A DNA stretch of 10,239 nucleotides from a virus (Duplodnaviria > Heunggongvirae > Uroviricota > Caudoviricetes): IMG/VR virus record IMGVR_UViG_2711768060_000003, one strand, 5' to 3'. Position numbers and translations under genes: made by a program. The notes beneath the pieces were generated by a model. The model searched no databases. It was given only the letters and a program-made list of their open reading frames with translations, and was not told where the DNA came from. Below, one piece after another: positions 7,387 to 8,475 of the stretch (within the stretch, counting starts at the first letter, position 1; the number at the start of each line of letters is the position of its first letter).

Positions 7387-7772
7387 TGAACAGGTTTCGA
7401 CGCCTGCTTACAAACGCGGATGCCCGGATAACCCGGGCATTTGCTGAAGAGGTACCTGCATATCTGTTTCTTCAGGGAGGAGAAAAACGGCCTGTAATGG
7501 TGATATTCGAATCGCCGGATGCAACCGTCGGGATCCGTGACGGCGGTGAAATTAATGATCATGCACCAGCCTTCAGTGCTATGACAGCAGATATTTCCGG
7601 GTTAATGAAACGTGATCAGGTGGAAATTAATGCTGATGTTTTTCATGTGACGCATATTGGCGCTGATGAGGAAGGGCGTACACGGGTTACTCTCGCGCGG
7701 GGAGAACCCGGAAGAAGTACACCTGCTGCACCGGAACGACCGAGTAAACGTTATGGCAGTCAGAGAGCATGA
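7386..7772 (+). CDS. Head-tail adaptor / head-tail joining protein (128 aa)
   Basis: Start ATG 7386 overlaps the upstream stop as TGATG. Position after capsid and decoration genes. Motif …VFHVTHIGADEEGRTRVTL… recalls the phage head-tail joining family. Confidence 0.5.
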   Translation: MNRFRRLLTNADARITRAFAEEVPAYLFLQGGEKRPVMVIFESPDATVGIRDGGEINDHAPAFSAMTADISGLMKRDQVEINADVFHVTHIGADEEGRTRVTLARGEPGRSTPAAPERPSKRYGSQRA

Positions 7773-8475
7773 ACGAAGCAGTGCCCGACAGCGACGGCTG
7801 GCACGAAACCTCGTCGTCGATATTGATGAAGATGAGGTGCTGAAAATTGTCGCTAAACTGGGTGGGTCAAAAAGTCAGATCCGTAAAGCCTGGGGCGTGG
7901 CGCTGAAAAGAGCCGCGTCTGCACTGCGGATGAAGGCTATGGCAGAGTTTAAAAAACAGGTTGCCCCACGCAGTCAGAAAATGATCAAAAAGCGTGTTCT
8001 GCATAATTTTATCATTCGTCGTAACGGTGATGAGTTTGATGAGGCGAAGGTATGGTTCGGTCTGAACGCCATCAAAGTACGCGATCTGCGCGGACGCATC
8101 AGTGGGGGACGACGCGGTGAACGCCATCAGTTGCGCGATGAGCGGGGGCGTTTTGCACCAGCTTCCCGCCGCAGGGAGGCACGGGAGGTCCGTTTTAAAC
8201 CTGCCGGGGAATCCCTGCCTGTCACCACCTGGTCAACGGATGATGCCTTTATCAACCAGTTCGAAGCGGAAAATCGTAACGGACGTATATCAAAAAGGAA
8301 AACGATACTGATCCGACAGGCATCCGGACGACGGAGGGTGCGTGAAGCGGAAATTGATATTTATGAAGCCATGCTGAACCGTATCGAGGATTTTGTTTTT
8401 CCGGATGCGGAAGCACTGATCCTGAAAAATTTTGAGCATGAACTGAAATTCCGGGTATTTAAGGGGCTGGAGTGA
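7753..8475 (+). CDS. Hypothetical Arg/Lys-rich virion morphogenesis-position protein (240 aa from ATG 7753; ORF open from TTG 7657)
   Basis: Long ORF in the late operon between the head-tail adaptor and baseplate genes. Very basic (e.g. GRRGERHQLRDERGRFAPASRRREAREVRF). No family recognised. Start uncertain: TTG 7657, ATG 7666 or ATG 7753. Confidence 0.5.
   Translation: MAVREHERSSARQRRLARNLVVDIDEDEVLKIVAKLGGSKSQIRKAWGVALKRAASALRMKAMAEFKKQVAPRSQKMIKKRVLHNFIIRRNGDEFDEAKVWFGLNAIKVRDLRGRISGGRRGERHQLRDERGRFAPASRRREAREVRFKPAGESLPVTTWSTDDAFINQFEAENRNGRISKRKTILIRQASGRRRVREAEIDIYEAMLNRIEDFVFPDAEALILKNFEHELKFRVFKGLE

What the first reader, a model, noticed from the sequence alone, without database searches (positions are those of the whole stretch)
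7753..8475. Strongly basic Arg/Lys-rich protein of unknown function in the structural operon
The 240-272-aa product has dense arginine clusters (RRGERHQLRDERGRFAPASRRREAREVRF, RKTILIRQASGRRRVRE), unusual for a neck or tail-completion protein. It could be a nucleic-acid-binding or ejected internal protein.
Basis: seen in the sequence. Interest (0 to 1): 0.45.

Follow-up and report, generated by a model that had tools for sequence, protein, structure and literature searches.

The report
Lambda gpZ-type phage tail completion protein
The strongly basic 240-residue protein is an ordinary, so far unannotated relative of phage lambda's tail completion protein gpZ, a family that is basic as a rule and probably sits inside the neck, linking the end of the packaged DNA to the tail's tape measure protein.

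Summary
Window 7753-8475 (+) encodes a 240-aa protein with pI 10.95, net charge +22 and 15% Arg. Both quoted Arg clusters are present.

The gene sits between an FII-like head-closure gene and an acidic collar/terminator (R2-pyocin PA0615-like), ahead of a P2-type baseplate. This order held in every related viral locus with enough flank (77/77 upstream, 72/72 downstream).

Strong basicity is a family trait: gpZ pI 12.0 (+37), P2 gpS pI 10.5, and 222 relatives with median pI 11.0.

The 33-aa Arg-rich loop is a subfamily-specific expansion under strong purifying selection (dN/dS 0.07).

By analogy with 80alpha, the protein is probably a lumenal cork that contacts the DNA end and is expelled at infection. 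Verdict: new member of a known kind, low interest.

The parts
7753..8475 (+). Gene for the 240-aa lambda gpZ-type tail completion protein (TCP/Ne1); pI 10.95, net +22
7870..7959 (+). Long N-terminal helix (aa 40-69), basic; one of the two side-by-side helices typical of TCPs
   Evidence: DSSP on the AF2 model, pLDDT >90. TCP fold as described in PMC11784142 and PMC11661146.
8095..8193 (+). Arg-rich apical loop (aa 115-147, between invariant G114 and F148): RISGGRRGERHQLRDERGRFAPASRRREAREVR. It is the long form of a loop that is bimodal in length across the family.
   Evidence: Low pLDDT of 58-62. Loop length is 8-16 aa in about 90 relatives and 28-37 aa in about 130; the target has 33. Conserved H125, R128, G132, R133, R140, R141. 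dN/dS 0.07. Aligns with the RRRRRKKGQRSS loop of lambda gpZ.
8287..8346 (+). Beta hairpin with an RRR turn (aa 179-198), the second Arg cluster (RKTILIRQASGRRRVRE)
   Evidence: Strands 179-188 and 196-198 in the model. R182, R195, R197 nearly invariant; A199, E200 invariant.
8362..8463 (+). Long C-terminal helix (aa 204-237), the only acidic stretch of the protein (net -5 over residues 201-230)
   Evidence: Model, pLDDT 90-97. Sliding charge.
7365..7772 (+). Upstream neighbour: FII-like head closure protein (Hc1). It overlaps the TCP start by 20 nt.
   Evidence: Pfam Phage_attach 9.9e-12, PHROG_82 3.1e-26, NCBIfam tail_join_FII. Adjacent upstream in 77/77 related loci.
8475..9038 (+). Downstream neighbour: acidic (pI 4.27, net -18) collar/tail terminator. 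Its start overlaps the TCP stop codon (TGATG).
   Evidence: Family profile hits the R2 pyocin collar PA0615 (6u5f), E 3.1e-8. PHROG_1072. Adjacent downstream in 72/72 loci. Charge.
9025..9645 (+). P2-type baseplate spike gpV, the start of the contractile-tail baseplate module
   Evidence: PHROG_9992 3.6e-23; weak Pfam Phage_base_V and Apex matches. RefSeq annotation of relatives.

Best explanation
The gene encodes the tail completion protein (TCP, also called Neck1) of a temperate E. coli myophage. This phage combines a lambda-type packaging, head and neck module with a P2/R-pyocin-type contractile tail. The protein belongs to the lambda gpZ branch of the TCP family.

Shown here:
- homology to the family and to gpZ;
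- the predicted fold: two long antiparallel helices carrying an apical beta domain with flexible Arg-rich loops;
- invariant gene order, head-closure FII-like gene, then TCP, then collar/terminator;
- family-wide strong positive charge, paired with a strongly acidic terminator;
- purifying selection on the Arg loop.

Inferred by analogy with the solved 80alpha/SaPI1 neck and with lambda and SPP1 genetics:
- One or a few copies are added to the finished tail and sit in the lumen at the neck.
- There the helices bundle with the end of the tape measure protein.
- The basic apical domain and loops face upward, contacting the negatively charged channel wall and the end of the packaged DNA.
- The DNA end is probably a cos end, because the terminase is of the lambda gpA type.
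- The protein thereby helps head-tail joining, positions and corks the DNA end, and on sheath contraction leaves with the tape measure protein ahead of the DNA.

Confidence is about 0.9 that it is a gpZ-type TCP and about 0.55 for the lumenal DNA-end-cork mechanism.
For: - Family match: PHROG_27 'tail completion or Neck1 protein', E 3.3e-28, near full length.
- Family size and link to gpZ: 193 clusters in the exhaustive search. Members P0160, P0119, P0097 and P0100 exceed Pfam's gathering score for PF06763 Minor_tail_Z, and 7 of 36 members match it.
- Fold: the AF2 model has pLDDT 83.7 and pTM 0.74, with helices 40-69 and 204-237 and an apical beta domain. This matches the published description of TCP and gpZ models.
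- Synteny: the order FII-like, TCP, collar, gpV is seen in an E. coli prophage, Hafnia phage yong2 and Vibrio phage Valp1. It also holds in 77/77 (upstream) and 72/72 (downstream) IMG/VR loci. The downstream gene is the collar (PA0615, E 3.1e-8).
- Charge: gpZ +37 with gpU -20; gpS +14 with gpR -10; here +22 with -18.
- Published mechanism: TCP contacts with DNA and tape measure protein and TCP electrostatics in 80alpha; gpZ and gp16.1 mutant phenotypes (PMC11661146, PMC11099176).
- Packaging type: gpA-type terminase and lambda-family portal.
Against: - The target itself gives no Pfam hit to Minor_tail_Z or HK97-gp10_like, even at E 1.
- hhalign of the 20-sequence alignment against the single lambda gpZ sequence found nothing.
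- Foldseek against the PDB found nothing significant.
- The HMM hit to gpZ carries compositional bias (7.6 bits).
- The location of gpZ has never been resolved in lambda virions (PMC12617516).
- The T5 protein called TCP sits on the tail tip, not in the neck (PMC11784142), so the location is not necessarily uniform across the family.
- No experiment on this protein exists.
Confidence: 0.8

Rival explanations
1. It is a TCP-family protein, but like T5 p143 it is located elsewhere, for example on the outside of the tail tip or baseplate. Alternatively it acts only as an assembly factor for the collar interface and has no contact with DNA.
For: T5 p143 (255 aa, similar in size) was placed as a monomer on the side of the tail tip (PMC11784142). 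SPP1 gp16.1 has an auxiliary role in assembling the tail interface (PMC11099176). No TCP has been seen in any myophage neck structure.
Against: T5 p143 is a structural outlier among TCP models, with a low-confidence prediction. The present model is confident and has the canonical two-helix plus beta fold. tblastn of the target against 50,697 phage records at E 1e-5 returned only seven records, none of them T5. The extreme positive charge, shared with gpZ, fits the acidic lumen and DNA better than an external site.
Confidence: 0.12
2. It is a ring-forming structural neck subunit (a hexameric or dodecameric adaptor or terminator) rather than a low-copy lumenal protein.
For: The gene lies in the neck module. 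PHROG names the family 'Neck1'.
Against: The neighbouring genes already supply the head-closure ring (FII-like) and the collar/terminator (PA0615-like). The family HMM does not hit gpU, gpR or gpK. TCPs are absent from symmetric neck reconstructions, and the one solved TCP is a monomer.
Confidence: 0.04
3. It is an unrelated basic nucleic-acid-binding protein, such as an internal head protein or a regulator, that merely happens to lie in the structural operon.
For: High Arg content. No Pfam or NCBIfam hit for the target itself. RefSeq labels it 'hypothetical protein'.
Against: Multiple independent homology, fold and synteny links to the TCP family.
Confidence: 0.03

Closest known systems
Phage lambda gpZ (Pfam PF06763 Minor_tail_Z), the prototype tail completion protein
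   Same: - Gene position directly after FII and before the tail terminator.
- Extreme positive charge: gpZ pI 12.0, net +37.
- An Arg-rich loop at the aligned position: gpZ LSRRRRRKKGQRSS.
- Collinear HMM match, E 2.9e-5; family members pass the Pfam cut-off.
- An apical beta domain between two long helices (description).
- A lambda-type gpA terminase and portal in the same phage.
   Different: - 240 aa against 192 aa.
- The target itself is below Pfam detection.
- The loop is a 33-aa conserved motif (RHxLRDxxGRF...RRR) rather than a poly-Arg run.
- It serves a contractile P2-type tail with a collar, instead of a siphophage tail with gpU.
Staphylococcus phage 80alpha/SaPI1 gp51 (HK97 gp10 family TCP; PDB 9mu2 chain P)
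   Different: gp51 is half the size (about 115 aa), lacks the apical beta domain and the Arg loops, has 6% identity to the target, and belongs to a headful-packaging siphophage. No PF04883 match for the target.
P2 gpS and Mu gpG (Pfam PF05069 Phage_tail_S), the TCPs of classical myophages
   Same: Same assigned role in contractile-tailed phages (PMC11099176 Table 1). gpS is also basic (pI 10.5) and is paired with the acidic gpR.
   Different: No detectable sequence relation: the family HMM does not hit gpS or gpG, and there is no PF05069 hit. Although the baseplate and tail here are P2-like, the TCP is lambda-like.
SPP1 gp16.1
   Same: Same family role. Genetics show functions in tail-to-head joining and in correct routing of DNA into the cell (PMC11099176).
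   Different: 141 aa, from a phage of Gram-positive bacteria. No direct sequence match was tested or found here.
T5 p143
   Same: Assigned to the TCP/Ne1 family by gene position. Similar length (255 aa).
   Different: It is located at the tail tip and has an atypical predicted structure. It was not among the seven phage records found by tblastn with the target at E 1e-5.

Membership tests
Tail completion protein / Neck1 superfamily (PHROG_27; lambda gpZ, HK97 gp10, SPP1 gp16.1, 80alpha gp51) | Significant profile match to the family | tested here: met
   PHROG_27 E 3.3e-28; residues 15-239 against profile positions 4-194 of 199.
Tail completion protein / Neck1 superfamily (PHROG_27; lambda gpZ, HK97 gp10, SPP1 gp16.1, 80alpha gp51) | Gene lies between the head-closure gene and the tail terminator gene | tested here: met
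   FII-like gene upstream in 77/77 loci; PA0615-like collar downstream in 72/72 loci.
Tail completion protein / Neck1 superfamily (PHROG_27; lambda gpZ, HK97 gp10, SPP1 gp16.1, 80alpha gp51) | Fold: two long side-by-side helices plus a small beta sheet | tested here: met
Tail completion protein / Neck1 superfamily (PHROG_27; lambda gpZ, HK97 gp10, SPP1 gp16.1, 80alpha gp51) | Match to Pfam PF04883 HK97-gp10_like | tested here: not met
   No hit at E 0.1. The same is true of lambda gpZ, which matched only PF06763, so this is not required for the gpZ branch.
Tail completion protein / Neck1 superfamily (PHROG_27; lambda gpZ, HK97 gp10, SPP1 gp16.1, 80alpha gp51) | Present in tails/virions in low copy; loss gives unjoined or poorly infectious particles | not testable with these tools
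   Needs mass spectrometry and genetics.
Lambda gpZ family (Pfam PF06763 Minor_tail_Z) | Score above the Pfam gathering threshold (23.9 bits) | tested here: inconclusive
   The target gives no hit even at E 1. Relatives that match the target family at E 1e-25 to 1e-71 score 27.5-30.1 bits. The 220-member family HMM hits gpZ at 25.8 bits, E 2.9e-5. Membership is therefore transitive.
Lambda gpZ family (Pfam PF06763 Minor_tail_Z) | Very basic protein with an Arg-rich loop after the first apical strands, and an additional apical beta domain | tested here: met
   pI 10.95 against 12.0 for gpZ. Loops aligned. Beta domain in the model, compared with the gpZ description in PMC11661146.
Tail terminator / collar (lambda gpU, P2 gpR, pyocin PA0615) | Sequence or profile match to a terminator family; acidic ring-forming protein | tested here: not met
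   The family HMM does not hit gpU, gpR or gpK and the protein is strongly basic. The next gene matches PA0615.
P2 gpS / Mu gpG family (PF05069 Phage_tail_S) | Pfam match | tested here: not met
   No hit for the target, whereas gpS and gpG hit at about 1e-43.

The most novel reading that the evidence does not exclude
The long, conserved, strongly constrained Arg-rich loop (RHxLRDxxGRF...RRR; 28-37 aa) is found only in one subfamily of gpZ-like proteins of enterobacterial myophages. It could be a dedicated clamp for the genome end. In this reading it remains bound to the cos end, enters the cell with the DNA as a pilot, and protects the end from host exonucleases, in the way T4 gp2 or Mu gpN act. 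That would be a post-ejection function not yet shown for any tail completion protein.
Probability: 0.1. Interest if true: 0.55.

Novelty: new member of a known kind. Interest (0 to 1): 0.2.

Why it matters
The main result is an annotation fix. A gene labelled 'hypothetical protein' in RefSeq E. coli prophages can be named a gpZ-type tail completion protein. Its acidic neighbour can be named a collar/tail terminator.

There is modest wider value. Tail completion proteins are the least understood conserved tail component. Only one has been located in a virion, in 80alpha, and gpZ itself has never been seen in lambda maps. A gpZ-type protein working with a contractile P2/R-pyocin-type tail would be a useful comparison case. 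Its constrained Arg-rich loop gives a concrete target for mutagenesis. The case could help test whether the 'DNA-end cork' model generalises to cos phages and to myophages.

Tried and rejected
- Direct Pfam and NCBIfam scans of the target gave nothing useful.
- phmmer and a profile search against PDB sequences gave only chance hits: norovirus VP1, designed repeat proteins, TAL effectors.
- Megablast against phage genomes gave no match.
- hhalign of the 20-sequence alignment against the single lambda gpZ sequence found nothing (probability 0.2%). The link to gpZ appeared only with a broader 220-sequence HMM and through intermediate members.
- Long proteins with many repeats matching the Arg-loop segment (P0216, P0254, P0259) are WD40-repeat proteins. 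They match by chance on 'D..TG+' strings and were rejected.
- The 272-aa form starting at TTG 7657 was rejected. It would overlap the FII-like gene by 116 nt, and homologues and PGAP start at the ATG.
- A charge-dipole argument (basic apex, acidic base) was considered but not pressed. Helix 1 is basic and helix 2 acidic, and I had no model coordinates to compute a surface.

Full report
**Observation.** Window 7753-8475 (+) is an ATG-initiated ORF of 240 codons. An in-frame TTG at 7657 would give 272 aa. It has 37 Arg, 19 Lys, 12 Asp and 22 Glu, giving net +22, pI 10.95 and 15.4% Arg. The other genes of the window range from net -18 to +6, so the protein is a local outlier. PGAP calls the same 723-nt gene in E. 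coli prophages, and close homologues share the MAVREH/MAINEF N-terminus. I therefore take 240 aa as the product.

The gene is under purifying selection. dN/dS is 0.13 against the 88%-identical copy in E. coli A19, and 0.07 within codons 110-148, the first Arg cluster.

**Context.** The window is the late operon of a temperate enterobacterial myophage. In order, it carries:
- a DUF1441 small-terminase-like protein, a lambda gpA-type large terminase and a lambda-family portal;
- a ClpP-protease/major-capsid fusion, a DUF2190/cement decoration protein and an FII-like head-closure protein;
- the target, then a 187/188-aa acidic protein;
- P2-type baseplate proteins V and W.

In the relatives E. 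coli STEC313 and A19 the operon continues with J, I, H, G, sheath, tube, tail chaperone, tape measure, U, X and D. No phage genome in the INPHARED set is close at the DNA level. However, 78 of 5426 complete E. coli genomes carry the region, and an IMG/VR contig of 43,953 bp encodes a protein identical to the target (L008).

**Identity.**
- The target has no Pfam or NCBIfam hit of its own. It does match PHROG_27 'tail completion or Neck1 protein' at E 3.3e-28 over almost its whole length.
- Word-indexed and exhaustive HMM searches define a modest family: 154 and 193 clusters respectively. Nearly all members are unnamed, and they come mostly from Enterobacterales.
- Seven of 36 sampled members match Pfam PF06763 Minor_tail_Z, which is lambda gpZ. 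P0160, P0119, P0097 and P0100 exceed its gathering score with near full-length alignments.
- AlphaFold2 on a 36-sequence alignment gives a confident model (pLDDT 83.7, pTM 0.74). It has two long helices (40-69 and 204-237) and an apical beta domain (strands between 86 and 198). Only the N-terminus and the 118-145 loop are uncertain.
- BFVD matches include 'minor tail protein', 'tail component' and HK97 gp10 family models.

**Neighbours and synteny.** The downstream acidic protein (pI 4.27, net -18) belongs to PHROG_1072, 'unknown function'. A profile of its family hits the collar protein PA0615 of the R2 pyocin (6u5f) at E 3.1e-8, so it is the tail terminator/collar. The order head-closure, TCP, terminator is the canonical one (PMC11099176 Table 1). 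It is kept in Hafnia phage yong2 and Vibrio phage Valp1. It is also kept in all IMG/VR loci with enough flank: FII-like upstream in 77/77, collar and gpV downstream in 72/72. In Valp1 the homologue is already annotated 'tail completion or Neck1 protein'.

**Is the charge unusual?** No.
- Lambda gpZ has pI 12.0 and net +37, with an LSRRRRRKKGQRSS loop. P2 gpS has pI 10.5 and net +14.
- In each phage the next gene, the terminator, is strongly acidic: gpU -20, gpR -10, Valp1 -19, yong2 -12, here -18.

The basic TCP paired with an acidic terminator is thus a conserved feature, not a peculiarity of this protein.

**What is particular to this subfamily is the first Arg cluster.** The loop between invariant G114 and F148 is bimodal in length across the family. 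It is 8-16 residues in about 90 members and 28-37 in about 130. The target has 33. The long form carries a conserved motif (H125, R128, D129, G132, R133, R140, R141), and it aligns with the poly-Arg loop of gpZ. The second cluster is a beta hairpin with an RRR turn (residues 179-198). The closest clade also has a short extra insertion (NQFEAENRNGRI) and a 9-residue N-terminal extension.

**Mechanism.** What is shown stops at homology, predicted fold, synteny, charge and constraint. The rest is inference from the family.
- In the 80alpha/SaPI1 neck, one copy of the TCP lies in the lumen directly below the end of the packaged DNA. Aromatic residues and an arginine of its extended loop cap the last base pair and its phosphates. 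Its beta hairpin forms a sheet with the ends of the three tape measure chains. It presents a positive face to the DNA.
- Lambda Z- particles look complete but are about 500-fold less infectious, and gpZ was proposed to bind one DNA end.
- SPP1 particles lacking gp16.1 join poorly, and they eject their DNA outside the cell.

I therefore propose that the present protein is added to the finished contractile tail and sits in the neck lumen. Its helices would lie against the tape measure end, and its basic apical domain and Arg loops would lie on the cos DNA end and the acidic channel wall. On this model it leaves with the tape measure protein when the sheath contracts.

Two further points fit a tail protein. 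First, 77 of the 78 E. coli matches begin only at window position ~7689, just upstream of the gene, so the gene is inherited with the tail module even where the head module differs. Second, from my own knowledge and not tested here, the R2 pyocin cluster starts at the PA0615 collar and has no TCP gene. That fits a role tied to DNA and the head rather than to contraction.

**Caveats.**
- The direct sequence link to gpZ is weak and carries some compositional bias.
- gpZ has never been resolved in lambda virions.
- The T5 'TCP' sits at the tail tip.

The identity as a gpZ-type TCP is well supported (about 0.9). The lumenal DNA-end-cork mechanism is plausible (about 0.55).

**Verdict.** This is a real, conserved, strongly basic protein, but an ordinary one: a new, currently unannotated member of the gpZ branch of tail completion proteins, working with a contractile tail. 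Its guess of a DNA-binding, ejected internal protein matches current understanding of the family. Interest is low, at 0.2.

Noticed in passing
window 8472/8475-9038 (+): An acidic 187/188-aa protein (pI 4.27). It is labelled 'hypothetical' in RefSeq and PHROG_1072 'unknown function'. It is a homologue of the R2 pyocin collar PA0615 (6u5f, profile E 3.1e-8), so it is the tail terminator/collar. Its start overlaps the TCP stop codon (TGATG), which suggests translational coupling.
   Followed up: partly
window ~7689-7772 (3' end of the FII-like gene); L001 11680-12084: A mosaic junction. 77 of the 78 E. coli genomes with a match share DNA only from window position ~7689 onward, that is TCP, collar and V. 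They carry a different head module (S49 protease, separate capsid gene, FI). The two FII-like proteins are 44% identical overall, but their last 27 residues differ at a single position (S/N; ...TLARGEPGR[S/N]TPAAPERPSKRYGSQRA).
   Followed up: partly
window 4744-6984 (+): A single ORF that fuses a ClpP-like prohead protease (Pfam CLP_protease, residues 123-252) to a major capsid domain (Phage_capsid_4, residues 435-743). RefSeq calls the A19 homologue a 'ClpP-like prohead protease/major capsid protein fusion protein'. The true start is probably downstream of the listed GTG, which overlaps the portal gene by about 190 nt.
   Followed up: no
protein P0027 (Logan contig): A 217-aa protein whose N-terminal ~60 residues resemble the FII-like head-closure protein and whose remainder is the C-terminal two-thirds of a TCP. 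It is either a deletion or fusion variant, or an assembly artefact.
   Followed up: no
protein P0092 (283 aa): A TCP-family region (residues 85-269) preceded by a segment carrying Pfam DUF1441, the small-terminase-like domain seen at window 588-1085. This is an odd fusion or a misassembly.
   Followed up: no
proteins P0216, P0254, P0259: Long WD40-repeat proteins score against the family profile through 6-14 repeats that resemble the loop motif (W/S-D-x-x-T-G-K/R). This is chance similarity, worth knowing when searching with this profile.
   Followed up: yes
window 1-588: A 99-aa ORF running off the left edge (1-300) has no Pfam hit. It is followed by an AT-rich gap (GC 0.41 over 251-750) before the DUF1441 terminase gene. 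This is a candidate site for cos or a late-promoter element.
   Followed up: no
window 3193-3417 (+): A 74-aa basic ORF (pI 9.9) between the terminase and portal genes, in the position of lambda gpW. It has no Pfam hit. It is annotated 'phage head-tail joining protein' in STEC313 but 'hypothetical' in A19.
   Followed up: no
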